This document shows, piece after piece, positions 17,800 to 60,843 of a DNA stretch of 64,000 nt. This stretch comes from Candidatus Shapirobacteria bacterium (GTDB lineage Bacteria > Patescibacteriota > Microgenomatia > UBA12405). The position numbers were made by a program, and so were the translations under genes. The notes beneath the pieces are model-generated. The model ran no database searches and had not been told where the DNA came from. It saw nothing but the letters and a program-made list of their open reading frames with translations. The number at the start of each line of letters is the position of its first letter. Position 1 is the first letter of the stretch. The stretch is taken from contig JBAZTV010000001.1 of NCBI GenBank assembly GCA_041661765.1, positions 7,755-71,754 of the forward strand, given 5' to 3'.

Positions 17800-20795
<2,996 letters not shown>

Positions 20796-29260: not shown

Positions 29261-29311
29261 AATTTATTTATTTTGTTAAGTCTCCCCTGTCAAGGGGAGA
29301 TTTAGAGGGGT

Positions 29312-30178: not shown

Positions 30179-30335
30179 ATGTTTATTTTACTTTATATCT
30201 AGTTCTAAATCTGAGACCTGAAATTTGACATCTAAGATCTCTAATGTTGCGTATTATAACACCGATTTTTCAAAAAAAACCACCAAAGACTTCTCCCTTT
30301 GTTAAGGGGAGATGTCCGCAGGACAGAGAGGTTTT

Positions 30336-30349
30336 TTTATAGTATAATT
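30336..30349 (+). promoter_or_regulatory. Candidate -10 element TTTATAGTATAATT, 10 nt upstream of the ATG of pilin paralogue 1 (an identical 14-mer lies at 32226..32239 before paralogue 6); possible leaderless or short-leader promoter
   Basis: Identical 14-mer with a TATAAT core in both places, each sitting directly after a family-1 repeat tail (GGTTTTT). Confidence 0.35.
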
Positions 30350-30358
30350 CAAACAAAT

Positions 30359-30691
30359 ATGAACTCCGTTTTAGCCTTTAATCTTAGTGACATCCAACTT
30401 GGACAAACTTCTAACACTCTTGGCGGCAGTTACTCCACTACCAGTTCTCTTATTTCTATTATTCTCAAAACTTCCATTACTATTGCCAGTATTATTTTTC
30501 TTGGCCTTTTGATTTTTGGTGGAATTACCTTTATAATGAACGCAGGCAGTGGTGATTCCAAAAAAGCCGATCAAGGCAAAACAGCCATCACCAACGCTGT
30601 AATTGGATTCGCTATTGTGCTTTTAGCCTATACCATAATCCAAATTATCGAAGTTATTACTGGACTAAACATTTTAAATCCAAATTTATAA
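30359..30691 (+). CDS. VirB2/TrbC-like two-helix pilin candidate, paralogue 1 (the ORF-track start at 30299 reads through a repeat; ATG at 30359 preferred)
   Basis: Hydrophobic helix, loop AGSGDSKKADQGK, hydrophobic helix. Same architecture and loop motif as the five downstream paralogues. Confidence 0.55.
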   Translation: MNSVLAFNLSDIQLGQTSNTLGGSYSTTSSLISIILKTSITIASIIFLGLLIFGGITFIMNAGSGDSKKADQGKTAITNAVIGFAIVLLAYTIIQIIEVITGLNILNPNL

Positions 30692-30693
30692 TT

Positions 30694-30999
30694 ATGGCAT
30701 CAATTTTTGGAAACATTTCCAACCCCACTTCTTTTGCTAACGGTCCTCAAGGTTTCTTTGATTTTTTAAGCGCTATTTTTAAAGTTGCCGGCACAGTTGC
30801 TGGTATTTTCTTTATTATTAAAATAATTATGGCTGGTTTTAGTTACCTCAACGCTGGTGGAGATGAAAAGAAAATCTCCCAAGCTTGGGCTACCATTTGG
30901 CAAAGTATAGTTGGTTTCGTTATTGTTGCCTCTGCTTTTGTCATCGCCAGTGTCATCGGCAACTTAACTGGAATTAATATTCTTAACCCTACTCTATGA
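30694..30999 (+). CDS. VirB2/TrbC-like pilin candidate, paralogue 2
   Basis: TM helix, loop AGGDEKK, TM helix. 2-nt spacing from the previous gene. Confidence 0.55.
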   Translation: MASIFGNISNPTSFANGPQGFFDFLSAIFKVAGTVAGIFFIIKIIMAGFSYLNAGGDEKKISQAWATIWQSIVGFVIVASAFVIASVIGNLTGINILNPTL

Positions 31000-31340
31000 A
31001 CCATTTAACCAATAATCTTTTAGCCTACACTCTCACTGGTCCAGGTATTAAACCTGGATCCAATTCTGTTTCCACCTTAGAAAAAATTATTAGTTCTGTC
31101 ATTGGCATTTTAACCCTTGTTGGTGTTATTTACTTCACCATTCAAATAATTTTAGCCGGATATAAATTAATTGCTTCCCAAGGAGATCCAAAAGAATTCG
31201 AATCTGGTAAAAAAAGATTAACCACAAATATTATCGGTTTAGCTGTTATTGTTCTCGCCTACGGGCTCGGTGCCCTAATCGCCAGCTTACTCGGAATGAG
31301 CAGTATTTTTGATTTATCAACCGTTTTTAAACCAATTTAA
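30996..31340 (+). CDS. VirB2/TrbC-like pilin candidate, paralogue 3
   Basis: TM helix, loop SQGDPKE, TM helix. 4-nt overlap with the previous gene. Confidence 0.55.
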   Translation: MNHLTNNLLAYTLTGPGIKPGSNSVSTLEKIISSVIGILTLVGVIYFTIQIILAGYKLIASQGDPKEFESGKKRLTTNIIGLAVIVLAYGLGALIASLLGMSSIFDLSTVFKPI

Positions 31341-31341
31341 T

Positions 31342-31668
31342 ATGGCCATCACCAATCCTGTTTTAAAAAATAGTTCTAATATTAGTAGTAACCCCACTGG
31401 CTACTTTAACAGTGCCATTCAAACTATGATTTCTCTTTTTTTTATTTTTGGCCTAATCTACTTTATTTTTCATTTAGTTCTTGCCGGCTACAAAATGATT
31501 TCCTCTCAAGGGGATCCTAAAAAATATGAAGAGGCTCAACATAGCCTTATCTACTCTTTAATTGGTATTGCTATCGTCTTTTCCATTTTTGCCCTACTCA
31601 AAATTGTTGGCACTATTTTCGGTATCACCGGATTAGAAAGTTTAACCATTACCTGGCCATCCCTTTAA
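31342..31668 (+). CDS. VirB2/TrbC-like pilin candidate, paralogue 4 (start moved to the ATG right after the upstream stop)
   Basis: TM helix, loop SQGDPKK, TM helix. Confidence 0.55.
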   Translation: MAITNPVLKNSSNISSNPTGYFNSAIQTMISLFFIFGLIYFIFHLVLAGYKMISSQGDPKKYEEAQHSLIYSLIGIAIVFSIFALLKIVGTIFGITGLESLTITWPSL

Positions 31669-31717
31669 TATTTAAAATTTACTGGTAAAATTAATTAATA
31701 GTTATTAAATCAAAAAA

Positions 31718-32098
31718 ATGATCAAAGAAATAAAAAACAAAATTCAATTTGCAGCTGTTGCTGCTCCAATCTACGCCGCTCAAAGTTTAGAACTTACTGG
31801 TAAAGAGGGAAGCTTTTCTAACCTCGAAAATTTAACCATTAACGGTATGGTTTCTGGTGCTATTAGTTTAGTTTTAATTGTCGTGTCGTTAGTTTTCTTC
31901 TTTATTCTTGTCATCGGTGGTCTCAAGTGGATCACTTCTGGTGGAGATGAAAAAAAGGTTGCTGCCGCTCGTGCTGAAATTACCAATGCTTTAATCGGTT
32001 TAGTTATTGTCTTTGCCGCTTGGGCCATTATGAAACTTATTGGCTCCATCTTTGGCATCAACATCCTTGGAACTCTAACCATTCCAACTTTCCAATAA
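31718..32098 (+). CDS. VirB2/TrbC-like pilin candidate, paralogue 5
   Basis: TM helix, loop SGGDEKK, TM helix. Followed by a terminator hairpin. Confidence 0.55.
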   Translation: MIKEIKNKIQFAAVAAPIYAAQSLELTGKEGSFSNLENLTINGMVSGAISLVLIVVSLVFFFILVIGGLKWITSGGDEKKVAAARAEITNALIGLVIVFAAWAIMKLIGSIFGINILGTLTIPTFQ

Positions 32099-32114
32099 AA
32101 TCAATTTGATTTTT

Positions 32115-32144
32115 CACCCCTCCAATAATTTGGAGGGGTTTTTG
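32115..32144 (+). terminator. Intrinsic terminator after pilin paralogue 5 (CACCCCTCCAATAATTTGGAGGGGTTTTTG)
   Basis: An 8-bp GC-rich stem followed by a T5 run. Confidence 0.6.
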
Positions 32145-32244
32145 TTTAGACTTCTCCTTTTTTTTAATAAAAATAAAAGTGCCCTGTCAAGGGAAAGGTG
32201 GTACGAAGTACCAAAGGGTTTTAACTTTATAGTATAATTAATCC

Positions 32245-32598
32245 ATGAATTTAATCTCAAATATTTTCTCTCCTCCCCCAGTTTATGCCCAATCAGTTTG
32301 GAATAGTACTTGTGTTAAAGATACCGACGTCGCCACTATCCAAGGTTTTAATTGCCTTTTTGCTAATATTGCCCAAGTTATCGTTTATTTTGCTGGTCTT
32401 GCCTTTTTTATCATGTTCATTCGCGGTGGCTTCAGTTATCTAACTTCCAGTGGCGATCCAAAAAAAACAGCTAAAGCCACTTCCACCCTCACCCTGGCCA
32501 TTATTGGCCTAGTTGGAGTTATTATTTCCTACCTAATCATCAAATTCATCGGTGATTTTACAGGCATCAATATTACTGAGTTTAATATTCCCAGTTAA
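32245..32598 (+). CDS. VirB2/TrbC-like pilin candidate, paralogue 6
   Basis: TM helix, loop SSGDPKK, TM helix. It has its own upstream TTTATAGTATAATT element, identical to the one before paralogue 1. Confidence 0.55.
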   Translation: MNLISNIFSPPPVYAQSVWNSTCVKDTDVATIQGFNCLFANIAQVIVYFAGLAFFIMFIRGGFSYLTSSGDPKKTAKATSTLTLAIIGLVGVIISYLIIKFIGDFTGINITEFNIPS

Positions 32599-34085
32599 TG
32601 AAACGAATCTTAATCGTTTTATTATTTTTCTTATTTTTATTCCCCTCCTTGTCAAGGGAGGGGTCAGGGGTGGGTTTTGTCTACGCCCAACCAACAACTA
32701 TTTTATCTGAAAATCAATCCACCACTCCACCCACCGTCACCCCAGAAGAAAGTTTATGGACCAGATTTTGGAATTGGATTTCCAAAGTTTTTATTAAAAC
32801 TGATTACGCCATTGCCGAAAGATCAACCAAAAATATTAATTCTGACATGACCGAATATGGCACTACCTCAGACAATGGTAAACATTCATCTTCTGGCACT
32901 CGTCTCACCGATTCCCAAAGCCAAACCTGCTACAAAGGCAATGTTATTAAAAAAGTGATTTTAAATACTACTGGTTATCCCAACACTGACCTCACCCAAA
33001 TTTGTAATTCATCAAATGGTTGTGTTGTTTCCTCTGGTTCTGATTCTGATTGTAAAACAGTTTCTATTAAAGATTTAGCTCATTACTTTGTTCAAATTAA
33101 TAAACAATTCTATTGTGATAGTTCAAATAATTTAATTAATATTGAATCCAATATTACTAATGCTGTTATTGGCACCAGCCTTCCAGAAATTTCACAAAAC
33201 AATCTTAATTGTTATCAACAAATATATAATGATTTTTATCTAGTCCCTAAAAACGGTTCCACCGAAGAAGAAAATTCCAAAAATATAGTTCAAACTCCAA
33301 TTTCCGCCAGCAATCAAAGTTCCGGTGACAATGCCAATGCTACAAAAAATAAACTCAATAAAAATTTTATTCCTGCTAATAAAAATTGGAGTGGTTTAAA
33401 CAGCCTCCGCCCCGCTAGTTGGAAAAAAGGTCCATCAGAAGCTGGTACAGGTACCGGCACTGGATTTAATAGTGGTGGTGTCGTTAGTCCTGGTACGTGC
33501 AATGCCAAAGACAGCCACTGTCGAGGCATGAGCACCATTGGTGCTTTTGGTCTTTCTAAGTCAGGCAAAACTTATGAAGAAATACTTAAAAGTTATTACG
33601 GCGACATCACTCTTAAAACCATTGACATCTCCAATGCTAATATTACTATTATTCCCAATGATAACGACGACTGTTCATCAACCACTCTAAATCTCGAAAC
33701 TTACCTTAGTGGTCTTCAAGAAATACCCGATTCTTGGGGTGATTCCAGTGCAGGTGGTTATGAAAGTTTAAAAGCTCAAGTAGTAGCCGCTCGTACATAT
33801 GCTTACGTCTACACTCAAAATTTAACCAAATCAATTTGTACTAGTTCTAGTTGCCAAAATGCTCGTTGCAATGCCATTAATAGTAGTCCTAATTTAGACA
33901 AAGCAATTAAAGATACTGAAGGCCAAATTATTGTTGATTCAAATAATCAAACTCCATTCGCCACCGAATATGCTCGTTCCTTTTGCGGACCATCTCTATC
34001 CGTTACTTTTTCTAACCATACCACTCCTTCATTTAATGGTTATGATGCCGAAGTTCAAACCGGCGAAAAACTTTATTGTTTATAA
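32598..34085 (+). CDS. Secreted Cys-rich protein with a C-terminal SpoIID/LytB-like (lytic transglycosylase-type) domain
   Basis: N-terminal hydrophobic signal (partly repeat-encoded: FPSLSREGSGVGFVYA). C-terminal ...GGYESLKAQVVAARTYAYVYT... matches the conserved SpoIID/LytB signature (ALKAQAVAARTYA). Confidence 0.5.
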   Translation: MKRILIVLLFFLFLFPSLSREGSGVGFVYAQPTTILSENQSTTPPTVTPEESLWTRFWNWISKVFIKTDYAIAERSTKNINSDMTEYGTTSDNGKHSSSGTRLTDSQSQTCYKGNVIKKVILNTTGYPNTDLTQICNSSNGCVVSSGSDSDCKTVSIKDLAHYFVQINKQFYCDSSNNLINIESNITNAVIGTSLPEISQNNLNCYQQIYNDFYLVPKNGSTEEENSKNIVQTPISASNQSSGDNANATKNKLNKNFIPANKNWSGLNSLRPASWKKGPSEAGTGTGTGFNSGGVVSPGTCNAKDSHCRGMSTIGAFGLSKSGKTYEEILKSYYGDITLKTIDISNANITIIPNDNDDCSSTTLNLETYLSGLQEIPDSWGDSSAGGYESLKAQVVAARTYAYVYTQNLTKSICTSSSCQNARCNAINSSPNLDKAIKDTEGQIIVDSNNQTPFATEYARSFCGPSLSVTFSNHTTPSFNGYDAEVQTGEKLYCL

Positions 34086-35659
34086 AGCAATATTTTTTTA
34101 TGCTAAAATTATCTACAATGTCCGTCTCAAATATCTTACAGAAACTCAATTTCCGCGATACCAAATTAATTCCCCAATTTCCCAAATTAAATAAAAAAAT
34201 TAAATTTGCTTCCATTTTAATAGCTTTCGTTTTTCTAGGTTTTCTAGGACACAAAATCCTCGCCGCCGATACTGCCATCGAAAAATTTAAAGCCAAACAA
34301 GCTGCTATAGACAAGGGGAACAATCAAGAATCCTGGATGAACGAATCCATGATGAGTAATGCCATGTCTATTAATACTGCCATTGCCGGCACCATTCCCG
34401 ATTCTGTTCTTAATGGCACAGTCACCTCTTGGATCCCTGGCGGTATGATTGGTTTCACCAACAACGCTATCGCCACTCTTTATAATCCACCTGCCTCCGG
34501 TGTTCAGTATATTGCCGAAACTTTCAACAATTTTCTCGGCAAACCAGCCTACGCTACTAATGGTTATGACGGTTTAAAAGGTATTCAAAATATTTGGAAA
34601 TCCTTCAGAAATGCCGTTTATATTCTCTTTTCAATAGTTTTTGTTGGTATTGGCATTGCCATCATGCTCCGAGTCAAAATAAGTCAACAAGCCGTTATTT
34701 CCATTCAATCCGCCATACCTAGCTTAATCACTAGTCTTATTTTAGTAACTTTTTCCTATGCCATCGCCGGACTTCTTATTGATCTAAGTTATGTTTTTCA
34801 AGGTTTAGTTCTCGCTATACTTTTCAGTTCCAAAGGTGGATTAAATTCTGAACTTTTCCCCGGTTTTCTTAGTATTAGCCCTACATTTTCCAATCTTGTG
34901 ACTGCTGATTTTTGGACTGTTCTTCGTCTGACCTACAAAGCAGTCCCCATCGCAACTATGTCCGCACTATCAGGCATTGTTGCTGGAGCAATTGCTGGTC
35001 TTATAGGCGGATTCACAACTCTTATAACTGCTGGTATAGGTTGGGTCCCTGGCTTAATCGCTGGAGGCGCTGTTGGTGGGTTAGCTTTTATTCTTATATT
35101 TGCAATAATTCTAATAACAATTATCGTAAATGTCGTTAAGTTTTTCATTGGTATGGCTAAATGTTTTATTAATATTATTTTAAGGATAATTCTTGCTCCT
35201 CTTGAAATTGGTATGGGAGCAATTCCCAACAGTAAAATGAATTTTTCAAGTTGGATTTGGAATATAATTGCCAATTTAGCCGTTTTTCCACTCTCTCTTA
35301 TTTTCTTAGTTTTAGTTAACATGATTATCGACAGTGTCAACACAAGTAATCTTTGGGCTCCTCCAATGCTCGGCGGCAGTTGGTTATTAGGTCCTCTAAT
35401 CGGAATTAGCGCTTTAATGATTCTTGCCAAACTCCCAGCCATGATTCCAGAATTTATATTCCAACTCAAACCATCTCCATGGGGCAAAGCCATTGGTGAA
35501 AGTTTCGCTTCAATTGGTAAAACTGGTAAAATTGGCGAAGCTATTACAGGTGAAGGTCTTAATAGAGCATCAGATCTAACTGGTGAAGGCAATCGGTCAT
35601 GGCAAAGAGCCCTCAGAGGAGCCAACACCATATGGCAAAGAGCTCATAATAGACACTAA
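34076..35659 (+). CDS. Large polytopic membrane protein (8 or more TM helices), VirB6/TrbL-like by architecture
   Basis: 527 aa with multiple long hydrophobic helices separated by short loops and Gly/Ala-rich helices (GIVAGAIAGLIGGFTTLITAGIGWVPGLIAGGAVGGLAFILIFAIILITIIV). No enzymatic motifs. Confidence 0.45.
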   Translation: MFIKQYFFMLKLSTMSVSNILQKLNFRDTKLIPQFPKLNKKIKFASILIAFVFLGFLGHKILAADTAIEKFKAKQAAIDKGNNQESWMNESMMSNAMSINTAIAGTIPDSVLNGTVTSWIPGGMIGFTNNAIATLYNPPASGVQYIAETFNNFLGKPAYATNGYDGLKGIQNIWKSFRNAVYILFSIVFVGIGIAIMLRVKISQQAVISIQSAIPSLITSLILVTFSYAIAGLLIDLSYVFQGLVLAILFSSKGGLNSELFPGFLSISPTFSNLVTADFWTVLRLTYKAVPIATMSALSGIVAGAIAGLIGGFTTLITAGIGWVPGLIAGGAVGGLAFILIFAIILITIIVNVVKFFIGMAKCFINIILRIILAPLEIGMGAIPNSKMNFSSWIWNIIANLAVFPLSLIFLVLVNMIIDSVNTSNLWAPPMLGGSWLLGPLIGISALMILAKLPAMIPEFIFQLKPSPWGKAIGESFASIGKTGKIGEAITGEGLNRASDLTGEGNRSWQRALRGANTIWQRAHNRH

Positions 35660-53143: not shown

Positions 53144-54262
53144 ATGAAACTTTCCCTTTTACAAGAAAATTTAAACACTGCATTAACTAATGTTTCTCGA
53201 TTCGTCTCTTCAAAAAATCAATTACCTATATTAAATAATATTTTATTGTCAACCGACAACGGTAGACTGAAACTTTCAGCTACTAATTTAGAATTAAGTA
53301 TTAATTATTGGATTGGAGCCAAAATTGAAGAAGAGGGGACAATAACTATTCCCTCAAAGGAGATAACTGAATTTGTTTCTTATTTAACCCCTGGAAAAAT
53401 TGATCTTTCTCTAAAAGGAAACAATCTTTTAAATTTATCTTCATCAAAAACCGAATCAACTTTCACCACTAATCCTTCCACTGATTATCCTGATTTCCCC
53501 ACCCTCAACCCAGATACTTGTTTTGAATTAGATTTAAACATTTTAACTCAAGCCGTTTCCCAAATTGCTTTTTCCGCTGCCACCGACGACAGTCGTCCAG
53601 TTTTAACCGCCATCCTTTGTCAATTTACTTCTGACAGTTTAAATTTAGTTGCTACCGATGGTTTTCGTTTATCTTTTAAAAAGATTAAACTAATTAATCC
53701 TATTGATTTAAAAACCGACCAAATCACCTTTTTAATTCCTGCCAAAAGCCTTTTAGAGGTCACTAAACTCGCTAAAACCAACACTAAAGTTAAAATAGGT
53801 TTAACATCTGACGAACATCAAGTGGTCTTCGTTCTAGATGATGTAGAGCTGGTTTCTCGACTTATTGAAGGGGAGTATCCCGCCTATCAAAGAATAGTTC
53901 CAGAATCTTTTTCCACTAAAGTCTTTTTAAATAAAGATGAATTAACCCAAGCTGTTAAAATCGCCTCTGTTTTTGCTAAAGAATCAGCCAATATTGTTCG
54001 TTTTAATATTAAAACCAATTTTATTGAACTTACTGCCAACGCTCCTCAAATCGGTCAAAACAAAGCCACTGTCGATGCTAAAATAGAAGGCGAAACCCTA
54101 GAAATCGCCTTTAATTATAAATTTTTAATAGATTTTCTTAGCGTTTGCAAAAGCCAAGAAATTATTATCGAGTTAAATGAATCCCTAACCCCAGCCTTTT
54201 TTCACGATCAATCAGATAAAGATTTCTCCCACATCATCATGCCAGTCAGATTGCAAGACTAA
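53144..54262 (+). CDS. dnaN: DNA polymerase III beta sliding clamp
   Basis: 372 aa with three-domain clamp periodicity. The N-terminal ...LPILNNILLSTDNGRLKLSATNLELSI is typical DnaN, and the position after dnaA is canonical. Confidence 0.85.
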   Translation: MKLSLLQENLNTALTNVSRFVSSKNQLPILNNILLSTDNGRLKLSATNLELSINYWIGAKIEEEGTITIPSKEITEFVSYLTPGKIDLSLKGNNLLNLSSSKTESTFTTNPSTDYPDFPTLNPDTCFELDLNILTQAVSQIAFSAATDDSRPVLTAILCQFTSDSLNLVATDGFRLSFKKIKLINPIDLKTDQITFLIPAKSLLEVTKLAKTNTKVKIGLTSDEHQVVFVLDDVELVSRLIEGEYPAYQRIVPESFSTKVFLNKDELTQAVKIASVFAKESANIVRFNIKTNFIELTANAPQIGQNKATVDAKIEGETLEIAFNYKFLIDFLSVCKSQEIIIELNESLTPAFFHDQSDKDFSHIIMPVRLQD

Positions 54263-54663
54263 TTTATTTTAGAAATTTGAAATTCAAAACTATCTGTTTT
54301 AAATAGTGGATTTTTTTCCAACCATTCTTTAAATTCAGTCTCAGCTTTATCTTTATCTTCTTCTTTTTCAATTAAAATTACCAACACCCCAGGTTTTAAA
54401 TACCCTGCTATTTCCATTATTTTACCTTTATAAGGTATTACTACCACCTCATTATTTTCAGATCTAGGATTGTCAGACTCATATTCAATTATAGTTGGTG
54501 TTATTATTTGTGTCGGTACTACAATCTGGCTTGGTGGCGTAATAGTAATATTTTCAGTATTATTAGTTTGTGTACTTCCATAAAAAACCTTTAATATAAT
54601 TAACACTATTACCAAAAAACCTAAAAAAAACAACATAAAATATTTTTTTAAAAATTCAATCAT
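54259..54663 (-). CDS. Small bitopic membrane protein (134 aa)
   Basis: One N-terminal TM helix; downstream of the hydrolase and VirB4 genes on the same strand. Confidence 0.4.
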   Translation of the reverse strand: MIEFLKKYFMLFFLGFLVIVLIILKVFYGSTQTNNTENITITPPSQIVVPTQIITPTIIEYESDNPRSENNEVVVIPYKGKIMEIAGYLKPGVLVILIEKEEDKDKAETEFKEWLEKNPLFKTDSFEFQISKIN

Positions 54664-54682: not shown

Positions 54683-56623
54683 TTATAAAATTCTTGCAAA
54701 TTTTGTAAATCTTGAATAAGTTCCCATTTTTACAAAACCCGATCCTCCTCCACAAATATCAAGATTTCCCCCGGCTCCATCATGAATCCATAATAAATTA
54801 CCAGATGAATCTCTTCCTGCAAAAATTCCAATATGATCATTTGATCCCTCAATTCCTATATCACCCAATTGTAGGCTATTACTTGATATGCTTTTATCTT
54901 TCGCGCCAGCATAAATACTTGCCACATTACCCCTAGTCTCTATTCCAAGTTGATGGTAAGTCCAAATTACAAAACCAGAACAATCTAATCCATAAACATT
55001 TCTATCTGATCCAGAAGGAGAATTATTATTACCAAAGTTAGTAGTACCCCAATTCATATCAATGCCCCTCACTGGTTCACCAGATTGGTGACCTCCACCA
55101 TACCAGTAACAAACTTTGTTTAATAAAGAGCTAGCCATATCCACCACCATTTGTCCTGTAACTGTTTGGTTTGGATCAACTGTTGGTAAAACAATCGGAC
55201 CTGAAGATGAGATATATGGGGTTTCTGAAAATATAGAAGTGGAAGTTTCTGCTTCTTCCGGTGGTACTAAACTTGAAACTGAATTTCCCATTAATATTTG
55301 ATATCCAAATAATCCCCCAAAAACTAAAAGTATTATTGGTCCCATCACTGCTGCCGATACTGCTCCAATTAAAAGAAACGGCAAACCCACAATAAACATA
55401 CCACCACCAATAATTGCCCCACCTACTTTTCCAAAATTTTCTTCCAAACCCTTTTTAATTCCTATTCCCAATTTTTCCGCTATTTTACTAACTACATTTT
55501 TTAATATTTTAGCCGCCGCCGCTACTGCCACCACAATCGCCCCTATTCCAGTTGCCGAAATTGCCGCTGCCCCAGCTGCGGTTGCCGCTCCTGCCGCCGC
55601 CGCAGTACCAGTCGTTGCCGCTGCTTTAACTCCACCACTTAAAATTCCACTTAAAACCGTTGAAATACCCTTTTGAAAACCTTGTTCTGCTATGACGCCT
55701 AAAGAATTTTTTGCAAATTCACTAATTGCTTGATTTCCAATTTTGCTTATTAACTTTTGTTTTGTCCCAAACATTGTCTTATTCAGCCATCCGCCTGTCA
55801 ATTTATCCACTCTTCTATACCAACCCAAATAACCTTGAGTTCTAGAAAATAAATTACTCACACCCTGATCGTTAAAACCAGAAATTACATTTTCAAATGA
55901 TCGCACTTCTTTTATATCCTTCGGAAGATTTACATTTTTTAAGACACCTCTAATTGATTCATATCTATTTTTAATTTCTTTTACTTCTTCCGGCTTCTTA
56001 GTTAAGAAATTAGTTACGCCTCTTAAATCAGTCCAAGCATTCTCTAACTTACCTGGACCAAATTGGTTATTATTTTGTAGTGCCTCGTCTTTTTGCTCGT
56101 CAATTATACTTTCACTAAAATATATTTCCGAAACTAACTTCCCATACGCCCTTACATTATTTGATTCTTCTGCCTTCAAATCGGGATTCATTTTTTTAGT
56201 TTCTTCTAGTAGTTTTTTTTCAAAAACTTCCTTTTTAAACTCATTTATTCCATCTACATTTTCTTTCTTCCACTTATTCATCTCTATTTTTATTTTTTTT
56301 ACTTCAATCTCCGTCTCTTTTTTATCTTCTACTATTAAATTTTTTGAAACCACTTCTATCAAATCTTTTATTTCTTCTCCACTTGTTTTTATCTCTTCTT
56401 CTCCAAAAATAGACTTAATTTTAGATTCAAGTTCATTTTTTAGATTACCATCCCCATTTAAATTTTTTGTTATTTTTTCACCTAATTCTACTATTTTCTG
56501 TTCAACTGGATTTTTATTTTTTTTGTAATCATCTATATTAAAAACTTTCGCACCACCAGAAAAAACATCTCGATCAATATCTTGTAAAGCTGAACTTCCA
56601 TCCGTTCTGTTTGCCATTACCAA
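54683..56623 (-). CDS. Membrane-anchored cell-wall hydrolase with a C-terminal NlpC/P60 (CHAP-like) domain; analogous to Gram-positive T4SS hydrolases of the PrgK/TraG type
   Basis: Coiled-coil N-terminus; Ala/Gly-rich TM region (AAATTGTAAAAGAATAAGAAAISATGIGAIVVAV...); C-terminal YGLDCSGFVIWTY...H.GIFAG (Cys-His papain-like NlpC/P60 signature). Confidence 0.6.
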   Translation of the reverse strand: MVMANRTDGSSALQDIDRDVFSGGAKVFNIDDYKKNKNPVEQKIVELGEKITKNLNGDGNLKNELESKIKSIFGEEEIKTSGEEIKDLIEVVSKNLIVEDKKETEIEVKKIKIEMNKWKKENVDGINEFKKEVFEKKLLEETKKMNPDLKAEESNNVRAYGKLVSEIYFSESIIDEQKDEALQNNNQFGPGKLENAWTDLRGVTNFLTKKPEEVKEIKNRYESIRGVLKNVNLPKDIKEVRSFENVISGFNDQGVSNLFSRTQGYLGWYRRVDKLTGGWLNKTMFGTKQKLISKIGNQAISEFAKNSLGVIAEQGFQKGISTVLSGILSGGVKAAATTGTAAAAGAATAAGAAAISATGIGAIVVAVAAAAKILKNVVSKIAEKLGIGIKKGLEENFGKVGGAIIGGGMFIVGLPFLLIGAVSAAVMGPIILLVFGGLFGYQILMGNSVSSLVPPEEAETSTSIFSETPYISSSGPIVLPTVDPNQTVTGQMVVDMASSLLNKVCYWYGGGHQSGEPVRGIDMNWGTTNFGNNNSPSGSDRNVYGLDCSGFVIWTYHQLGIETRGNVASIYAGAKDKSISSNSLQLGDIGIEGSNDHIGIFAGRDSSGNLLWIHDGAGGNLDICGGGSGFVKMGTYSRFTKFARIL

Positions 56624-56635: not shown

Positions 56636-59221
56636 TTAAACTATCCCGTCTCCAAACAATTTATCATAATCCATCTTATTGTCTTCTTTTTTAAATTCTC
56701 CCTTGTCAAGGGGAGATGTCGATTTATCGACAGAGGGGTTTGAATCAAATATTGGTTGTGGTTTTCTTGCCAATTGTGGTGGTTGAGGTATTCTTTGTTC
56801 TTCAGTTTTAACAAAAATCGGTTTTTTATTTTCCGAGACCACTACAACTTCTGGCCTTTTAAATAACACCGACTCAGTTTTTAACTCCGGTTTTATTTCA
56901 GTCATCGCTACTGTGGGATTAAAGGAGGTGTTCCGCAGTGGCGGAACGGAGGGTTTTACTTCAATTTCCACTGGTTTTATTTCGGGAACACTAACTTTAG
57001 GAGTAAAATTAATGGTTCTTATTTCATCAGTTTTATTAGCAGTCAATGCTGACTCAACTGGTTTTACCTCCATCGGTTTTATTTCTAAAACATTAAAATT
57101 AGTTGTCGTTTCAGGCATTTTAATCTCCATTGATTTTATTTGCCCTGCCCTGTCAAGGGAAGGGTTAGTGAAGGGTTTAGGTACTTCTGGTGGGACTGAG
57201 GGGTTTTGAACCGGAATTTTATTTTCAATCTCTACAGTTTTTATTTCTGGAATATTAAATTTTGGCGCCACTGGAGTCGTTTTTACCTCGACTGGTTTTA
57301 AGTCTCCCTTGTCAAAGGGAGATTTAGAGGGATTGAAAACAGCTGATGGGTTTTGAAACGGTTTCGTTTCTATCGGTTTAATTAGTGGTTTCATTCCATT
57401 ATTTGGCTTTTGATCACTCAATAAACTTTGCTTTTTTAAAATATCTTCTGGATTAGAAGTAATTAAATTATGTTCATCAGCCGAAGCAATTATTTGAATT
57501 GCCACATGGTTTTGCCCAGCAAAGAAAATTCCTTCACCTTTACTTGCCGATAATAATAATTGTTTTTCTCCCTGACTCAAATAAAATACTTCTCCAATTT
57601 GGTCAATAGCCGCACTATGTTGTTTTAATAAAATTTGAATTGAACTATTAGTAACTATTTCTTTACCATAAGCAGTTTTCAAAAAATCATCAACATCTTG
57701 GGTAATTGTTGTCACTCCCAAATAGTATTTTCTGCCTCTTTTAACAATTCCTCTTAAAAATTCAGCTGAATCATCATGTTGCATCAAATACCAGGCTTCA
57801 TCCACCACCAATATTCTTTTTTTCAATGTCTTTTTAACAACCGTCCAAATATAATCCAAAATAATTTGCATTGCCACAGGTCTCAAAGCATCTTCCAAAT
57901 TTCTAATTCCAAAAACTACAAATTTATTAGTTAAATTAACCGTTGTCTTTTGGTTAAAAATTCCCGAAAAGGATCCTTTAATATATTTTTCCAATCTGGC
58001 TGCCAAACCTTTAGCTTTTTCATCTTCCATTCCAATCAAAGATTTATACAAATCCTCAATTAATGGTGGTTCTTTGTCTTGAGTTACTGGATCAGGAGTA
58101 ATCCCTTTCATCTTATAAGCATCCATCATTGCTCTATCCATAATTGATTCCTCAATCGGATCCATTTCACCCAACATCACTTTTAATAGTTTATGTAAAG
58201 ATAAGATCTTAGTATTTAAACCATTTTCACCCTGTTCTTCGGCTAAAGTTAAATCAAACGGATTAATTTTTGAACCTTCACCATAACCAAATGCAATATA
58301 TTGGCCGCCAGAATTATCACACAATTCTTTGTATTCATTTTCCGGGTCAATCACAATAACATCCGTTCCCATCATTAATGATCTAAGAACCTCCAATTTA
58401 ATTAAATAAGATTTACCAGCTCCAGCCATAGCAAAAACAACTGAATTATAATTTGGCATTGAAAATCTATCAAAAATTACCAAAGACCCATTATGCATAT
58501 TAATCCCATACATAATTCCCTGATCATCTGATAAATCTGACGACACAAAAGGGAAAGTAGTTGCCAAAGAGGTAGTATCCATATTTCGACTAACTGCCAA
58601 TCTATCTTGGCAAATAGGTAAAGTCGATACAAATCCATCTTCCATTTGTAACGTCGCTTTTTTACTTATAATCAACAACGATCCCAAGGCTGCCTCTAAA
58701 TTTTTATTTACTCTATCCAGTTCAACTATAGAATCAGCCGTTATCGTTACATAAAGTCCAAATTGAAAAAATCTTTCTTCGCCTTTAACCAAATTAGCCT
58801 GCAAATTCAAAGCATCCTCCAATTTCGCTTGTGTTGCTGGATTAATCAATCTACCCCTTTGAATATCAGTACTTAACTCGGCCTCCATTTCTGTGATTTT
58901 TCGGCGAAGATCATCTAAAACTTCTTTTCCATCGGTCGGATAAATAAACATTGAAATATTTAAAGAAGAATCAAAGTTAATCAATGACGACAACCAATTA
59001 ATTCCCACAAATCTCGGATATGCCGCAACAAATAAAGTTCGATAATATTTATTATCAATTCTAATATGGTTAAAATCCACTTCCAAAGCTGATGGAGCAA
59101 TTATATCTTTAGTTGTCACCAACCCTTGAGTGAAATCTCTTTTATTTGGATCAACTACCTCTGTTGGTGTTGCTGGATTATTTACTACTGTTGTTTTTTT
59201 ATTAATATTAAAAAGTTTCAT
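56636..59221 (-). CDS. virB4: VirB4/TrbE/CagE-family T4SS ATPase with a C-terminal extension of about 270 aa that reads through four palindromic repeats
   Basis: Walker A VFAMAGAGKSYLIKLEVL; Walker B ILVVDEAWYLM; conserved RKYYLGVTTITQDVDDF. The tail contains SKSPFDKGDLKP, NPSLDRAGQIK and TSPLDKGEFKK, encoded by repeats at 56697..57331. Confidence 0.8.
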   Translation of the reverse strand: MKLFNINKKTTVVNNPATPTEVVDPNKRDFTQGLVTTKDIIAPSALEVDFNHIRIDNKYYRTLFVAAYPRFVGINWLSSLINFDSSLNISMFIYPTDGKEVLDDLRRKITEMEAELSTDIQRGRLINPATQAKLEDALNLQANLVKGEERFFQFGLYVTITADSIVELDRVNKNLEAALGSLLIISKKATLQMEDGFVSTLPICQDRLAVSRNMDTTSLATTFPFVSSDLSDDQGIMYGINMHNGSLVIFDRFSMPNYNSVVFAMAGAGKSYLIKLEVLRSLMMGTDVIVIDPENEYKELCDNSGGQYIAFGYGEGSKINPFDLTLAEEQGENGLNTKILSLHKLLKVMLGEMDPIEESIMDRAMMDAYKMKGITPDPVTQDKEPPLIEDLYKSLIGMEDEKAKGLAARLEKYIKGSFSGIFNQKTTVNLTNKFVVFGIRNLEDALRPVAMQIILDYIWTVVKKTLKKRILVVDEAWYLMQHDDSAEFLRGIVKRGRKYYLGVTTITQDVDDFLKTAYGKEIVTNSSIQILLKQHSAAIDQIGEVFYLSQGEKQLLLSASKGEGIFFAGQNHVAIQIIASADEHNLITSNPEDILKKQSLLSDQKPNNGMKPLIKPIETKPFQNPSAVFNPSKSPFDKGDLKPVEVKTTPVAPKFNIPEIKTVEIENKIPVQNPSVPPEVPKPFTNPSLDRAGQIKSMEIKMPETTTNFNVLEIKPMEVKPVESALTANKTDEIRTINFTPKVSVPEIKPVEIEVKPSVPPLRNTSFNPTVAMTEIKPELKTESVLFKRPEVVVVSENKKPIFVKTEEQRIPQPPQLARKPQPIFDSNPSVDKSTSPLDKGEFKKEDNKMDYDKLFGDGIV

Positions 59222-59925
59222 TCCATTTGCCCTCCTGTCACTACCGGTGCTTGATAATTTACATTTTGAACCTTTTGGCTAACGGCAGTTTCTTCATTAT
59301 AAGTTCTATAAAAAAGATCAATTACTTCTTTATTATTCAAAGGTTTTATTTCCAACCCTAGTCTCGAAAAAAGTCTCAATAAGTGATCTACTTTTGGTTC
59401 CAAATTAATTTTAGCCTTTTCTAAAATATATTCTTTAGTAAATGGTAATTCCTGACCCCTGCCTTGCTGTAAAAACATTTTTATTCCTTTAGTTCCACCA
59501 GTTTTAATTCCCAACTCCAAAGACGAAAAAGTAATCGCAATATAAAACGATTTTGATAAAATATCACTCTTTTTAACTGTTTCTTCGATAAATTTTCTAT
59601 ATAGACTAATCCTTTCCTTTAGGCGCGGGTTTAATTGCTTTTCCTCCATATTTTGCAAATTTTTTAAATAAGAACTTACATCTTTGGCATGTGATTGAAT
59701 AATAATTTGTATTGGAAAATTTAAAGAATTTATAATTCCTCCATAAGCAAAGACTAAAGCCGATTGTTCTGGCTCAGACAACAAATCAAAATTAACAGAC
59801 GACACACTTAATACCTTTGAGCAAGATCCATCTTTCATAATCACAATCCCATCAACCACATCTTCTATTGGTAAATGTTCCTGAGTACTTCCTTTAATAG
59901 CAATCTTTAGTGGATCTGTTGGCAT
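59218..59925 (-). CDS. Hypothetical cytoplasmic protein (235 aa) co-transcribed upstream of virB4
   Basis: 4-nt overlap with the virB4 start. No motifs. Confidence 0.4.
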   Translation of the reverse strand: MPTDPLKIAIKGSTQEHLPIEDVVDGIVIMKDGSCSKVLSVSSVNFDLLSEPEQSALVFAYGGIINSLNFPIQIIIQSHAKDVSSYLKNLQNMEEKQLNPRLKERISLYRKFIEETVKKSDILSKSFYIAITFSSLELGIKTGGTKGIKMFLQQGRGQELPFTKEYILEKAKINLEPKVDHLLRLFSRLGLEIKPLNNKEVIDLFYRTYNEETAVSQKVQNVNYQAPVVTGGQME

Positions 59926-59928
59926 ATT

Positions 59929-60843
59929 TTAATTATTAGAAATAATTCTAATTGGTTGAACTATTTGTTCATTTAAATCTATATTAACTCTATCAAAATT
60001 ATAACCATCTTTTTCCGCAATTATCAGATATCTACCATTTGCCAAAGGAGTTGTTATTTTAAATTGACCTAAAGAATTTGTTTTTAATACCCTTGAAGGG
60101 TTTCCTTGTTCATCTTGGACTTCAATAATTACTCCATCAATTATCGCTCCCTCCATATTCGTTGCCATACCCACTATTACATTAGGTACTTCTGGAATAT
60201 CTGGCATTGGAATAGAGCCAAAAATTGCTTTTCCTGTCGCTCCTAATTTTTCTGTTTTAAGATTTAAATTTGCTTTTTGATCTTTCCAATCTTCTACTTT
60301 TTCTTCAACTTTTTCACTCGGACTTACTTCTACTGCTAGTTTTTTTTCAGTGATTATTTTTTTAATTTCAGGTTTTGCTTCAAGTTCTATATTAATTTCT
60401 TCTTTAGTTCCACCTTTTTTTATTCCAATTACACCTATTGCATCTTTTAATTTATTTCCCCAAAGATTAGATTTTAATCGTCCTCCAGTCATTACAATAT
60501 CATCTTCATTCTGGTTTATATTTTTTGTTAAATCTAAATCAAGCCAATTTTTATTAGCCTTTCTCCGATAAATATAAATTGTTGGTGAATAAATTGCTTT
60601 TAAAAATGAAAAAATCCATACTTCCAATGGTCTATCCTCGAAAGGTATAAAAGCCAAAACTAATCCACCCCCAGCAAAAAGTAATATTAACGGCCACTTT
60701 ACCAAAATTATTAATTTAGTTGAATTAATCATTATTGCCAAAACTATTCCCACTGCCGCCTTCAAAAATTGCTTCAACGTCATATCTCCCACAAGTTTAA
60801 ATTCATAGGATGATATTTGCTGTGGAATCGCGTGCTGTTCCAT
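59929..60843 (-). CDS. Bitopic/2-TM membrane protein with an extracytoplasmic carboxypeptidase-regulatory-like beta-sandwich (NGRYLIIAEKDGYNF)
   Basis: N-terminal hydrophobic helices, then a soluble domain. First gene of the virB4-containing minus-strand block. Confidence 0.4.
   Translation of the reverse strand: MEQHAIPQQISSYEFKLVGDMTLKQFLKAAVGIVLAIMINSTKLIILVKWPLILLFAGGGLVLAFIPFEDRPLEVWIFSFLKAIYSPTIYIYRRKANKNWLDLDLTKNINQNEDDIVMTGGRLKSNLWGNKLKDAIGVIGIKKGGTKEEINIELEAKPEIKKIITEKKLAVEVSPSEKVEEKVEDWKDQKANLNLKTEKLGATGKAIFGSIPMPDIPEVPNVIVGMATNMEGAIIDGVIIEVQDEQGNPSRVLKTNSLGQFKITTPLANGRYLIIAEKDGYNFDRVNIDLNEQIVQPIRIISNN

What the first reader, a model, noticed from the sequence alone, without database searches (positions are those of the whole stretch)
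32598..35659. Pilin array is followed by a secreted SpoIID/LytB-like enzyme and a VirB6-like polytopic membrane protein
Directly downstream, on the same strand with 0- to 9-nt spacing, are two genes. The first is a Cys-rich exported protein whose C-terminus carries the SpoIID/LytB signature (GGYESLKAQVVAARTYAYVYT), a peptidoglycan lytic transglycosylase-type domain that fits the wall-piercing role of VirB1-like enzymes. The second is a 527-aa membrane protein with 8 or more helices and Gly/Ala zipper helices, like VirB6/TrbL channel subunits. Together with the VirB4 and NlpC/P60 block 20 kb away, this forms a minimal monoderm-type T4SS-like or pilus apparatus with no relaxase or coupling protein in the window.
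Basis: partly seen in the sequence, partly recalled or inferred. Interest (0 to 1): 0.6.

Follow-up and report, generated by a model that had tools for sequence, protein, structure and literature searches.

The report
Pilus-assembly genes of a CPR secretion system
Two genes after a six-gene pilin array in a Candidatus Shapirobacteria (CPR) chromosome encode a fast-evolving exported protein with a rearranged SpoIID-type wall-cutting domain and a large membrane protein that is the best candidate for the so-far missing VirB6 subunit of this group's type IV secretion/pilus machine.

Summary
ORF 32598-34085 is an exported, Cys-rich protein. Its C-terminus matches Pfam SpoIID (40 bits, cut-off 23). 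ORF 34076/34100-35659 is an 8-TM protein with Gly-zipper helices.

Both genes are co-oriented and tightly coupled to the sixth of six VirB2-like pilin genes. About 19 kb away lies a PrgI/VirB3-like, TrsD-like, VirB4 and NlpC/P60 block next to dnaA. This is the known chromosomal T4SS of Patescibacteria (PMC12102498, PMC10633639).

New details:
- The order pilins, then a variable 'slot' protein, then the membrane protein holds in about 70 of 83 species-level loci. It also holds in distant relatives with different flanks. In one of these (L089) the membrane gene lies within 3 kb of the PrgI/TrsD genes.
- The slot protein is modular and hypervariable. Positional equivalents carry SpoIID, SLT, VanY, GH5 or C39-like domains, or no enzyme domain.
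- The SpoIID domain here is short and circularly permuted, and it keeps the catalytic Glu.
- The membrane protein gives no sequence signal against VirB6/TrbL. Its only fold matches in the PDB are TrwI/VirB6 chains, and these are weak.
- A terminator after pilin 5 is conserved.

Verdict: a new variant of a known system, of moderate interest.

The parts
30299..30691 (+). VirB2-like pilin 1. The likely true start is ATG 30359, giving about 110 aa.
   Evidence: PF18895 at 32.6 bits, above the gathering score of 26.6. It is a positional orthologue in 56 loci.
30694..30999 (+). VirB2-like pilin 2.
   Evidence: PF18895 at 33.9 bits. Positional orthologue.
30996..31340 (+). VirB2-like pilin 3.
   Evidence: PF18895 at 35.1 bits, plus a weak TrbC/VirB2 PF04956 hit.
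31309..31668 (+). VirB2-like pilin 4. The likely start is ATG 31342.
   Evidence: PF18895 at 34.1 bits.
31718..32098 (+). VirB2-like pilin 5. It is the most conserved pilin and the last gene before the terminator.
   Evidence: PF18895 at 36.2 bits. Median identity to the window is 61% across 47 loci.
32116..32147 (+). Intrinsic-terminator-like hairpin (ACCCCTCCAA-TAAT-TTGGAGGGGT) followed by a T-run, between pilin 5 and pilin 6.
   Evidence: An equivalent hairpin plus T-run is present in the pilin5-pilin6 gap of 42 of 56 loci and in 0 of 56 for each of the other inter-pilin gaps.
32245..32598 (+). VirB2-like pilin 6. It is translationally coupled (TAATG) to the next gene.
   Evidence: PF18895 at 31.5 bits. 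The overlap is visible.
32598..33482 (+). Slot protein, N-terminal part. It comprises a signal peptide (aa 1-31) and an orphan Cys-containing module (to about aa 295).
   Evidence: The module is shared by 58 of 65 positional equivalents (iterative HMM). It occurs alone as 240-300 aa proteins or fused to other enzyme domains. It has no Pfam or PDB match. AF2 pLDDT is 82-93 only for aa 110-210.
33483..34085 (+). Slot protein, C-terminal part. It is a short (about 195 aa), circularly permuted SpoIID/LytB-type domain. The candidate catalytic Glu is E375 (nt 33720-33722).
   Evidence: PF08486 at 40.1 bits. TIGR02870 positions 303-337/338 match aa 307-341, while TIGR02669 positions 5-90/270 match aa 363-450. 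The same order swap appears against SpoIID structures 5i1t and 5txu. E375, R399, H307, C414 and C419 are invariant in 31 homologues. pLDDT is 83-97.
34076..35659 (+). Polytopic membrane protein (8 hydrophobic segments, Gly-zipper helices) and candidate VirB6 equivalent. The probable start is ATG 34100.
   Evidence: The top 7 PDB Foldseek hits are TrwI/VirB6 chains. The gene always follows the pilin array and slot gene. There is no Pfam or NCBIfam family.
54259..54663 (-). Small bitopic protein (134 aa) downstream of NlpC/P60. Its homologues sit directly upstream of the membrane gene in other genomes.
   Evidence: phmmer E 1e-6 to 7e-9 to ORFs in L005, L013, L026, L046, L081 and L082, each lying between the slot gene and the membrane gene.
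54683..56623 (-). Membrane-anchored NlpC/P60 peptidoglycan endopeptidase of the VirB4 block.
   Evidence: PF00877 at 30 bits, above the gathering score of 23. TM segments at aa 346-446.
56636..59221 (-). VirB4-like ATPase of the monoderm CD1110 type.
   Evidence: NF045971 at 381.9 bits, cut-off 325. PF19044 TraG P-loop.
59218..59925 (-). TrsD-like protein (VirB4 N-terminal-like).
   Evidence: NF041427 TrsD at E 3e-8, below its cut-off. It is homologous at 6e-70 to the gene next to PrgI in L089.
59929..60843 (-). PrgI/VirB3-like membrane protein with a C-terminal CarboxypepD_reg-like domain.
   Evidence: Weak PF12666 PrgI and PF13620 hits. Two TM segments. It is homologous at 3e-53 to the PrgI-like gene in L089.

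Best explanation
The two genes form the distal part of a pilin6, slot protein, membrane protein transcription unit. This unit belongs to the chromosomal, conjugation-derived type IV secretion/pilus system of Patescibacteria, here in a Candidatus Shapirobacteria genome.

The 8-TM protein is proposed to be the VirB6 equivalent. It would form the membrane platform or channel that takes VirB2-like pilins out of the membrane and assembles or gates the pilus. The VirB4 ATPase, encoded with PrgI/VirB3-like and TrsD-like partners 21 kb away, would power it.

The upstream gene encodes a Sec-exported protein of two parts. One is a lineage-specific, fast-evolving N-terminal module, presumed to dock to the apparatus. 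The other is an exchangeable envelope-degrading domain. In this genome that domain is a minimal, circularly permuted SpoIID-type lytic transglycosylase, which would locally cut glycan strands so that the pilus or channel can cross the wall (a VirB1-like role).

Shown: the gene structure, the domain matches, the synteny, the linkage to the VirB4 block, the domain swapping, and the conserved catalytic Glu.

Inferred: VirB6 homology, enzymatic activity, docking of the N-module, which wall is cut, and the stoichiometric control by the terminator after pilin 5.
For: - Six PF18895 pilins lie directly upstream, and the SpoIID Pfam hit is above threshold.
- A VirB4 (CD1110 type), TrsD, PrgI and NlpC/P60 block sits next to dnaA/dnaN, as described for Microgenomatia in PMC12102498.
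- The order six pilins, slot gene, membrane gene is found in nearly all of 83 loci from species-representative genomes. It also holds in distant family members with unrelated flanks (L085, L086, L087, L089).
- In L089 the membrane gene is followed within 3 kb by homologues of the window's PrgI-like (3e-53) and TrsD-like (6e-70) genes.
- The 134-aa gene of the VirB4 block has homologues immediately upstream of the membrane gene in six loci.
- Pilin 6 and the slot gene overlap as TAATG, and 14 nt separate the slot gene from the membrane gene. A conserved terminator follows pilin 5 in 42 of 56 loci.
- Foldseek of the AF2 model (pLDDT 75, TM core 80-95) against the PDB gives TrwI/VirB6 chains as the top 7 hits. 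The best has E 2.4e-3 and probability 1.0. The best unrelated hit has E 0.22 and probability 0.13.
- In S. epibionticum the VirB6 next to the six essential pilins was likewise recognised only by fold, at TM 0.50.
- Slot proteins carry SpoIID (12), SLT (8), VanY (5) or GH5 (2) domains, or C39-like peptidase domains. 58 of 65 share the N-module.
- The catalytic GEM-motif Glu is invariant: E375, equivalent to C. difficile SpoIID E101 (PMC6221140).
Against: - There is no sequence-level link of the membrane protein to VirB6/TrbL. Pfam and NCBIfam give nothing. Consensus sequences give nothing. hhalign against a 36-sequence Agrobacterium-type VirB6 profile gives probability below 1%. A profile search of PDB sequences gives nothing.
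- The SpoIID-like domain is short and permuted. It fails the full-length TIGR02669 cut-off, and its AF2 model finds no SpoIID structure by Foldseek.
- Canonical SpoIID needs glycan strands already stripped of peptides by an amidase (PMC6221140). No amidase partner was identified.
- GH5 domains in some positional equivalents do not fit a purely self-peptidoglycan role.
- Much of the synteny comes from one class (Microgenomatia), where flanking housekeeping genes are also syntenic.
Confidence: 0.72

Rival explanations
1. The slot protein is not a VirB1-like self-wall hole-puncher. It is a host-directed module. It would be mounted on, or exported by, the pilus/T4SS, occupying a VirB5-like position between the pilins and VirB6. 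Its exchangeable enzyme domain would attack the envelope of the organism the epibiont attaches to.
For: - It is the fastest-evolving gene of the locus: median 24.6% identity, against 42.7% for the membrane protein and 47-61% for the pilins.
- Enzyme domains of different bond specificity are swapped among related genomes. They include GH5 'cellulase' domains that do not act on peptidoglycan and C39/C70-like peptidases.
- A separate NlpC/P60 hydrolase already sits in the VirB4 block and could serve the self-wall role.
- The gene order pilins, slot, VirB6-like mirrors virB2...virB5-virB6 of the Ti plasmid.
- The CPR T4SS is essential for epibiotic growth (PMC10633639).
Against: - About half of the positional equivalents have no recognisable enzyme domain.
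- There is no fold or sequence similarity of the N-module to VirB5, adhesins or phage receptor-binding proteins.
- Hosts of Shapirobacteria are unknown.
- Monoderm T4SS hydrolases are also notoriously modular.
Confidence: 0.3
2. The membrane protein is a CPR-specific component unrelated to VirB6. It could be a pilin insertase, maturation factor or exporter, or a transporter. It would work with the pilin array without being the T4SS channel subunit.
For: - All sequence and profile tests against VirB6/TrbL were negative.
- Foldseek TM-scores are low.
- Weak hits to YidC-type insertase models recur in 5-7 family members, at E of 0.06 or worse.
- At 520-560 aa with an extra N-terminal extracytoplasmic region, it is larger than minimal VirB6 proteins (about 300 aa).
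Against: - The only consistent structural matches are VirB6 chains.
- No other polytopic candidate for the obligatory VirB6 role is linked to the T4SS genes in the window.
- VirB6 proteins are too divergent for sequence tests in general. Agrobacterium VirB6 does not find R388 TrwI by phmmer.
- Three of 47 distant members give sub-threshold hits to mycoplasma ICE transmembrane conjugation proteins.
- 'Extended' VirB6 proteins are known (PMC12857230).
Confidence: 0.22
3. Both genes are ordinary cell-envelope housekeeping genes, for example wall remodelling at division. They lie next to the pilin array only because gene order is frozen in this lineage.
For: - Flanking housekeeping genes (FtsH, DUF6909, ATP-grasp cluster) are also syntenic across Shapirobacteria.
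- SpoIID/LytB proteins have general wall-remodelling roles in non-sporulating bacteria (general knowledge).
Against: - The association survives in lineages where the flanks differ, and in L089 it joins the VirB4 module.
- The SpoIID domain is not conserved at the position, so it is not a housekeeping orthologue.
- The slot gene is translationally coupled to pilin 6.
- Homologues of the 134-aa protein shuttle between the two T4SS blocks.
Confidence: 0.05

Closest known systems
Chromosomal T4SS of Patescibacteria (S. epibionticum SEML1_0006-0019, Wang et al. 2023, PMC10633639; survey by Quinonero-Coronel et al. 2025, PMC12102498)
   Same: - MPF_FATA-type VirB4 with TrsD-like and PrgI-like partners near dnaA.
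- An array of six divergent VirB2-like pilins.
- A VirB6 candidate next to the pilins, recognisable only by fold.
- Wall hydrolases nearby.
- No relaxase or T4CP in the cluster.
   Different: - Here the system is split into two blocks about 19 kb apart.
- The VirB6 candidate is a 520-aa family not picked up by the published HMM survey, which found VirB6 'scarce' in Microgenomatia.
- A hypervariable slot protein with swappable hydrolase domains lies between the pilins and the VirB6 candidate. As far as I could find, this has not been described.
VirB6/TrbL (PF04610), e.g. A. tumefaciens VirB6 and R388 TrwI (PDB 7O3V, 8RT9, 8RTD)
   Same: - Polytopic inner-membrane protein with at least 5 TM helices.
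- Encoded with VirB2 pilins and VirB4.
- TrwI chains are the top structural matches.
   Different: - No detectable sequence or profile similarity.
- Almost twice the length.
- N-terminal signal/anchor plus an extracytoplasmic region of about 110 aa, and Gly-zipper helices.
- TM-scores are only 0.30-0.37.
SpoIID/LytB lytic transglycosylases (B. subtilis and C. difficile SpoIID; PDB 4RWR, 5I1T, 5TXU)
   Same: - The conserved GEM...ALKAQ.VAARTY catalytic segment with the catalytic Glu.
- The C..CQ motif.
- The GHG.GMSQ.GA...Y..IL..YY segment.
   Different: - The segments are in swapped order (circular permutation).
- The domain is about 195 aa instead of about 270 aa.
- It is fused to an orphan N-terminal module.
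- The context is a T4SS, not sporulation. No SpoIIP/SpoIIM partners were identified.
VirB1-type T4SS peptidoglycan hydrolases (VirB1; monoderm TraG of pIP501, PrgK, CwlT, TcpG)
   Same: - An exported wall-degrading enzyme encoded inside a T4SS cluster.
- Modular, with varying hydrolase domains.
- The glycan-cutting domain (here SpoIID; SLT in sister genomes) is complemented by a peptidase (NlpC/P60) elsewhere in the system.
   Different: - A SpoIID-type domain is not among the hydrolase domains listed for T4SS-associated VirB1-type enzymes in PMC12102498.
- The glycosidase and peptidase activities are on two proteins in two blocks.
- The conserved part is a non-enzymatic orphan module.

Membership tests
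VirB6/TrbL (PF04610) | Sequence match to the family models (Pfam PF04610, NCBIfam VirB6/TrbL models) | tested here: not met
   There was no hit for the window protein. There was none for 45 close members, none for 47 distant members and none for family consensus sequences.
VirB6/TrbL (PF04610) | Profile-profile similarity to bona fide VirB6 proteins | tested here: not met
   hhalign of A1 and A4 against the 36-sequence Agrobacterium-type VirB6 alignment A5 gave probability 0.1-0.2%. The test covers only one VirB6 clade. VirB6 proteins do not find each other either.
VirB6/TrbL (PF04610) | Fold similarity to a solved VirB6 (R388 TrwI) | tested here: inconclusive
VirB6/TrbL (PF04610) | Polytopic membrane protein with at least 5 TM helices | tested here: met
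   Eight hydrophobic segments and long helices in the AF2 model.
VirB6/TrbL (PF04610) | Genetic linkage to VirB2, VirB3 and VirB4 genes | tested here: met
   The gene follows the pilin array in about 70 loci. It is adjacent to PrgI-like and TrsD-like genes in L089. It is 21 kb from VirB4 in the window.
VirB6/TrbL (PF04610) | Oligomeric platform that binds pilin/VirB5 at the base of the stalk | not testable with these tools
   This needs multimer modelling or cryo-EM/cryo-ET.
SpoIID/LytB (PF08486, TIGR02669) | Pfam SpoIID domain above the gathering score | tested here: met
   40.1 bits against 23, at aa 363-445. The domain is also precomputed on 60+ homologues.
SpoIID/LytB (PF08486, TIGR02669) | Full-length SpoIID/LytB domain in canonical order (TIGR02669 cut-off) | tested here: not met
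   63.2 bits is below the cut-off of 83.3. The canonical C-terminal segment (aa 307-342) precedes the canonical N-terminal segment (aa 363-450). The same order is found in all 28 CPR homologues in which both motifs were found.
SpoIID/LytB (PF08486, TIGR02669) | Catalytic glutamate of the GEM motif (C. difficile E101) | tested here: met
   E375 is invariant in 31 homologues within the consensus LGEMP. The motif correspondence is read from the alignment, and E101 is documented in PMC6221140. The HMMER alignment places the gap 4 residues off, so the equivalence is by motif.
SpoIID/LytB (PF08486, TIGR02669) | Fold similarity to solved SpoIID | tested here: inconclusive
   Foldseek of the AF2 model (C-domain pLDDT 83-97) found no SpoIID chain. 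Sequential aligners handle permutations poorly.
SpoIID/LytB (PF08486, TIGR02669) | Lytic transglycosylase activity on denuded glycan strands | not testable with these tools
   This needs a biochemical assay.
VirB1-type T4SS wall hydrolase | Exported peptidoglycan-degrading domain encoded within the T4SS gene set | tested here: met
   The protein has a signal peptide and a SpoIID domain and is coupled to pilin 6. Positional equivalents carry SLT or VanY domains.
VirB1-type T4SS wall hydrolase | Homology to VirB1 (SLT, PF01464) or to the CD419/TrsG profiles | tested here: not met
   The window protein has no SLT match. 8 of 65 positional equivalents do. The CONJScan profiles were not available.
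VirB1-type T4SS wall hydrolase | Facilitates assembly of the apparatus across the producer's wall | not testable with these tools
   This needs genetics or biochemistry.
Patescibacteria-clade T4SS (MPF_FATA-derived) | VirB4 of the monoderm type with TrsD-like and PrgI-like neighbours, near dnaA, with a VirB2-like pilin array and no relaxase or T4CP nearby | tested here: met
   NF045971 at 382 bits, at or above the cut-off. TrsD and PrgI hits are weak. dnaA/dnaN lie at 51489-54262. There are six PF18895 genes. No relaxase or T4CP domains were found in the window. This matches the description in PMC12102498.

The most novel reading that the evidence does not exclude
The gene between the pilin array and the VirB6 candidate encodes an exchangeable 'warhead'. 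An orphan docking module would place the protein on or through the T4SS pilus, in a VirB5-like position. It would carry a cassette-like enzyme domain (permuted SpoIID, SLT, VanY, GH5, C39-like) tuned to the envelope of the particular host that each Microgenomatia lineage parasitises. The locus would then be a host-range determinant and a direct molecular handle on the still unknown hosts of these CPR bacteria.
Probability: 0.25. Interest if true: 0.8.

Novelty: new variant of a known kind. Interest (0 to 1): 0.5.

Why it matters
The T4SS of Patescibacteria is essential for epibiotic growth in the one tractable species. Its composition outside Saccharimonadia is poorly defined.

The published survey found VirB6 'scarce' in Microgenomatia and VirB1 homologues mostly absent. 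This locus offers concrete candidates for both:
- A large family of membrane proteins (at least 3,500 clusters at 50% identity), fixed downstream of the pilin array.
- A modular hydrolase-bearing protein in front of it.

The locus also shows that the six pilins are ancient positional orthologues with a conserved internal terminator. This argues for a defined hetero-oligomeric structure with controlled stoichiometry rather than a variable antigen array.

If the swappable enzyme domain targets the host envelope, it could help predict the hosts of uncultivated CPR lineages.

Tried and rejected
- **Family scans of the membrane protein.** Pfam and NCBIfam scans were run on the protein, 92 relatives and family consensus sequences. 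They gave no VirB6/TrbL hit. Weak hits to mycoplasma ICE transmembrane proteins appeared in 3 of 47 distant members. They were not reproduced in the 45 close members or in the consensus sequences, so I treat them as a hint only. DUF6861 and Gly-zipper hits look compositional.
- **Searches against PDB sequences.** A profile search with the membrane family found nothing relevant. Agrobacterium VirB6 against PDB found nothing, not even TrwI.
- **hhalign against VirB6.** Comparisons with a single VirB6 and with a 36-sequence VirB6 profile were negative.
- **tblastn of VirB6 against plasmids.** It reached only Rhizobiales, too narrow for a broad profile.
- **Foldseek of the slot-protein model.** Searches against PDB and BFVD gave nothing, for either the N-module or the SpoIID-like domain.
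- **N-module searches.** The N-module profile against PDB sequences and Pfam gave nothing.
- **Cluster look-up of distant relatives.** It gave no organism names.
- **Housekeeping idea rejected.** I rejected the idea that the SpoIID-like gene is a housekeeping or sporulation orthologue, because the domain is not conserved at the position.
- **ATP-grasp cluster rejected.** I rejected the idea that the divergent 7TM_transglut/ATP-grasp cluster belongs to the system, because it is not linked in the distant loci.
- **868-aa gene not included.** The convergent 868-aa gene is not detectably homologous to the large proteins at the same position in distant loci, so it was not included as a part.

Full report
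**Source and setting.** The window is a chromosomal stretch of a Candidatus Shapirobacteria (Microgenomatia, CPR/Patescibacteria) genome. The exact SpoIID-like protein is on record from a 445-kb contig annotated as Shapirobacteria (P0121), and nearly all relatives of both proteins are from Shapirobacteria or Woesebacteria MAGs. dnaA and dnaN lie at 51489-54262. A 23S-5S rRNA pair lies at 17579-20794.

**Observation.** Both ORFs are real.
- Gene 1 (32598-34085, 495 aa) starts with an ATG that overlaps the stop of the sixth pilin gene as TAATG. It has a signal peptide, is Cys-rich, and matches Pfam SpoIID above the gathering score (40.1 against 23 bits, aa 363-445).
- Gene 2 is 527 aa from TTG 34076. 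Public gene calls use ATG 34100, 14 nt after the stop of gene 1. It has eight hydrophobic segments. Its AF2 model has a confident helical membrane core (mean pLDDT 75, and 80-95 over aa 170-470).
- The six upstream genes all pass PF18895 T4SS_pilin.
- A VirB4 of the monoderm CD1110 type (382 bits, cut-off 325), a TrsD-like protein, a PrgI/VirB3-like protein and an NlpC/P60 hydrolase lie at 54683-60843.
- No relaxase or coupling-protein domain occurs in any ORF of 100 aa or more.

**What is already known.**
- Wang et al. 2023 (PMC10633639) showed that an unusual T4SS with six essential pilins is required for epibiotic growth of Southlakia epibionticum.
- Quinonero-Coronel et al. 2025 (PMC12102498) showed that most Patescibacteria carry a chromosomal MPF_FATA-derived VirB4 with TrsD and PrgI, often near dnaA. 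VirB2 arrays are abundant in Microgenomatia, relaxases are absent, VirB1 homologues are rare, and VirB6 is 'scarce' in Microgenomatia, 'suggesting extreme sequence divergence'.
- The window is therefore an instance of a known system. The question is what the two genes add.

**Synteny.** A scan of species-representative genomes with the membrane-protein profile found 545 relatives. I analysed the best 80 loci plus three others.
- The order is almost invariant. ATP-grasp genes and a 7TM_transglut gene lie on the minus strand. Then come six pilin genes, one variable 'slot' gene, the membrane gene, a variable large gene on the minus strand, DUF6909 and FtsH.
- Because housekeeping flanks are also syntenic, I looked at more distant family members. 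In L085, L086, L087 and L089 the flanks differ, but pilins, a large slot protein and the membrane protein persist in that order.
- In L089 the membrane gene is followed within 3 kb by homologues of the window's PrgI-like (3e-53) and TrsD-like (6e-70) genes. The two blocks that are about 19 kb apart in the window are therefore contiguous elsewhere.
- The 134-aa bitopic protein that follows NlpC/P60 in the window (54259-54663) has homologues located immediately upstream of the membrane gene in six other loci.
- Together these observations tie both genes of the finding to the VirB4 machine.

**The slot protein.**
- The protein at this position is the fastest-evolving gene in the locus. Its median identity to the window across 47 loci is 24.6%. 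The membrane protein is at 42.7%, the pilins at 47-61% and the ATP-grasp protein at 75%.
- An iterative HMM started from the N-terminal 295 aa recovers 58 of 65 positional equivalents.
- This module also occurs alone as 240-300 aa proteins, or fused to Peptidase_C39_2/C70 domains.
- Pfam scanning of all 65 equivalents finds SpoIID in 12, SLT in 8, VanY in 5 and GH5 cellulase in 2. Most of the rest show no enzyme domain. Two further distant loci carry GH5.
- The N-module has no Pfam, PDB-sequence or fold match.
- The conserved entity is thus an orphan module, and the wall- or glycan-degrading domain is interchangeable. That excludes a sporulation or division orthologue and fits a secretion-system accessory hydrolase.

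**The SpoIID-like domain is atypical.**
- Against NCBIfam and against solved SpoIID structures, aa 307-342 (HCRGMS..GA..L..SGKTYEEILKSYYG) align to the extreme C-terminus of SpoIID. Aa 363-450 align to its N-terminal catalytic segment.
- The same order is seen in all 28 CPR homologues in which both motifs were found.
- The domain is about 195 aa rather than about 270 aa, and it fails the full-length TIGR02669 cut-off.
- The Glu of the GEM motif is invariant. It is E375 here, within the family consensus LGEMP. It corresponds by motif to the catalytic E101 of C. difficile SpoIID (PMC6221140). R399, C414 and C419 are also invariant.
- I infer an active, circularly permuted mini-SpoIID lytic transglycosylase. 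This is not shown: Foldseek did not recover SpoIID from the model, and canonical SpoIID needs peptide-stripped glycan.

**The membrane protein.**
- The family is large: 3,583 clusters at 50% identity with E up to 1e-3.
- No sequence method links it to VirB6/TrbL. Pfam and NCBIfam scans of 92 members and of consensus sequences found nothing. A profile search against PDB sequences found nothing. hhalign against an Agrobacterium-type VirB6 profile gave probability below 1%.
- These negatives are weak evidence, because Agrobacterium VirB6 itself does not find R388 TrwI.
- Structurally, the top 7 Foldseek hits in the PDB, and also the ninth, are TrwI/VirB6 chains. The best has E 2.4e-3 and probability 1.0. 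The next unrelated hit has E 0.22 and probability 0.13. TM-scores are only 0.30-0.37.
- In S. epibionticum the VirB6 next to the six pilins was also identified only by fold, at TM 0.50.
- No other polytopic candidate is linked to the T4SS genes in this window.
- I regard a VirB6-equivalent role as the best explanation (about 0.6 for true homology, higher for the role). Formal family membership is not demonstrated.

**Operon architecture.**
- A textbook hairpin plus T-run follows pilin 5 (32116-32147).
- An equivalent element is present in the pilin5-pilin6 gap of 42 of 56 loci. It is never present in the other four inter-pilin gaps.
- Pilin 6, the slot gene and the membrane gene thus form a distal unit. 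This unit is probably expressed at a lower level than pilins 1-5, as for major and minor pilus components in other systems (inference).
- The six pilins are positional orthologues: 96-100% of best hits between loci fall on the same array position. The array is therefore an ancient fixed set, not a rapidly varying one.

**Mechanism proposed.**
- VirB4, with its PrgI/VirB3-like and TrsD-like partners, energises extraction of pilins from the membrane.
- The 8-TM protein provides the VirB6-like assembly platform or channel.
- The slot protein docks through its N-module and uses its enzyme domain to open a path through a wall, together with the NlpC/P60 endopeptidase of the VirB4 block.
- Whether that wall is the cell's own (a VirB1-like role) or the host's is unresolved. 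The hypervariability and the GH5 variants keep the host-directed reading alive (about 0.25-0.3).

**Verdict.** The system is known. The VirB6 candidate family for Microgenomatia, the modular slot protein with a permuted SpoIID domain, the conserved internal terminator and the positional orthology of the pilins are, as far as the searched literature shows, undescribed. I classify it as a new variant of a known kind, with interest about 0.5.

Noticed in passing
window 30299-32598, and 56 related loci: The six pilin genes are positional orthologues. The best hit of each pilin in another genome is at the same array position in 96-100% of 3,080 comparisons per position. The array is an ancient fixed set of six paralogues, and S. 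epibionticum also has six. This argues against an antigenic-variation type array.
   Followed up: yes
window 32116-32147: A strong intrinsic-terminator-like hairpin plus T-run lies between pilin 5 and pilin 6. It is conserved in 42 of 56 loci and absent from all other inter-pilin gaps. It probably sets the ratio of pilins 1-5 to pilin 6, the slot protein and the membrane protein. A TATAAT box at 32233-32238 lies only 6 nt before the pilin 6 ATG, which raises the possibility of a leaderless internal transcript.
   Followed up: partly
window 33483-34085 (aa 296-495 of the slot protein): The SpoIID/LytB homology is circularly permuted and shortened. The canonical C-terminal GHGxGMSQ...YY segment precedes the catalytic N-terminal segment. 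The same order is found in 28 CPR homologues, and possibly also in a few 420-aa non-CPR 'SpoIID/LytB' proteins (P0180, P0194, P0200-P0202).
   Followed up: partly
window 54259-54663 (-); L005, L013, L026, L046, L081, L082: A 134-aa bitopic protein is encoded after NlpC/P60 in the VirB4 block here. Its homologues are encoded between the slot gene and the membrane gene in other genomes. It is a likely further component of the apparatus, of unknown role.
   Followed up: partly
L001 14167-15798; L009: Some genomes carry a second paralogue of the membrane protein a few kb downstream of the first. They also carry an extra slot-like gene with an SLT domain and a seventh pilin.
   Followed up: no
window 25756-30178 (-): A divergently oriented cluster lies immediately upstream of the pilin array in nearly all Shapirobacteria loci. 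It comprises 7TM_transglut, ATPgrasp_ST (with a C-terminal RimB-like or aspartyl-protease-like region) and two RimK-type ATP-grasp genes. It is not linked to the array in the more distant loci L085-L089, so the association is probably lineage synteny rather than function.
   Followed up: partly
window 35672-38278 (-): A convergent 868-aa protein ends 12 nt from the stop of the membrane gene. It has no domain hits or TM segments and contains an internal duplication (DENDRKIEGIFGKDKG twice). A large, poorly conserved minus-strand gene occupies this position in many loci, including L089 (893 aa, between the membrane gene and PrgI). S. epibionticum also has a 999-aa T4SS-cluster protein. A possible relation was not established.
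   Followed up: partly
window 6-5345 (+): A 1,779-aa ORF has a Peptidase_S74 domain (intramolecular chaperone of endosialidase/tail-fibre type) at aa 1272-1318. It may be a giant surface fibre or adhesin.
   Followed up: no
window 17579-21042 (-): 23S and 5S rRNA genes lie with a tRNA upstream, but there is no 16S gene adjacent. The next gene is a VTT/DedA protein. The rRNA operon therefore appears unlinked.
   Followed up: no
window 54683-56623 (-): The NlpC/P60 protein of the VirB4 block has a long charged N-terminal region and Gly/Ala-rich TM segments (aa 346-446) before the C-terminal peptidase. This resembles membrane-anchored VirB1-like hydrolases of Gram-positive T4SSs.
   Followed up: no
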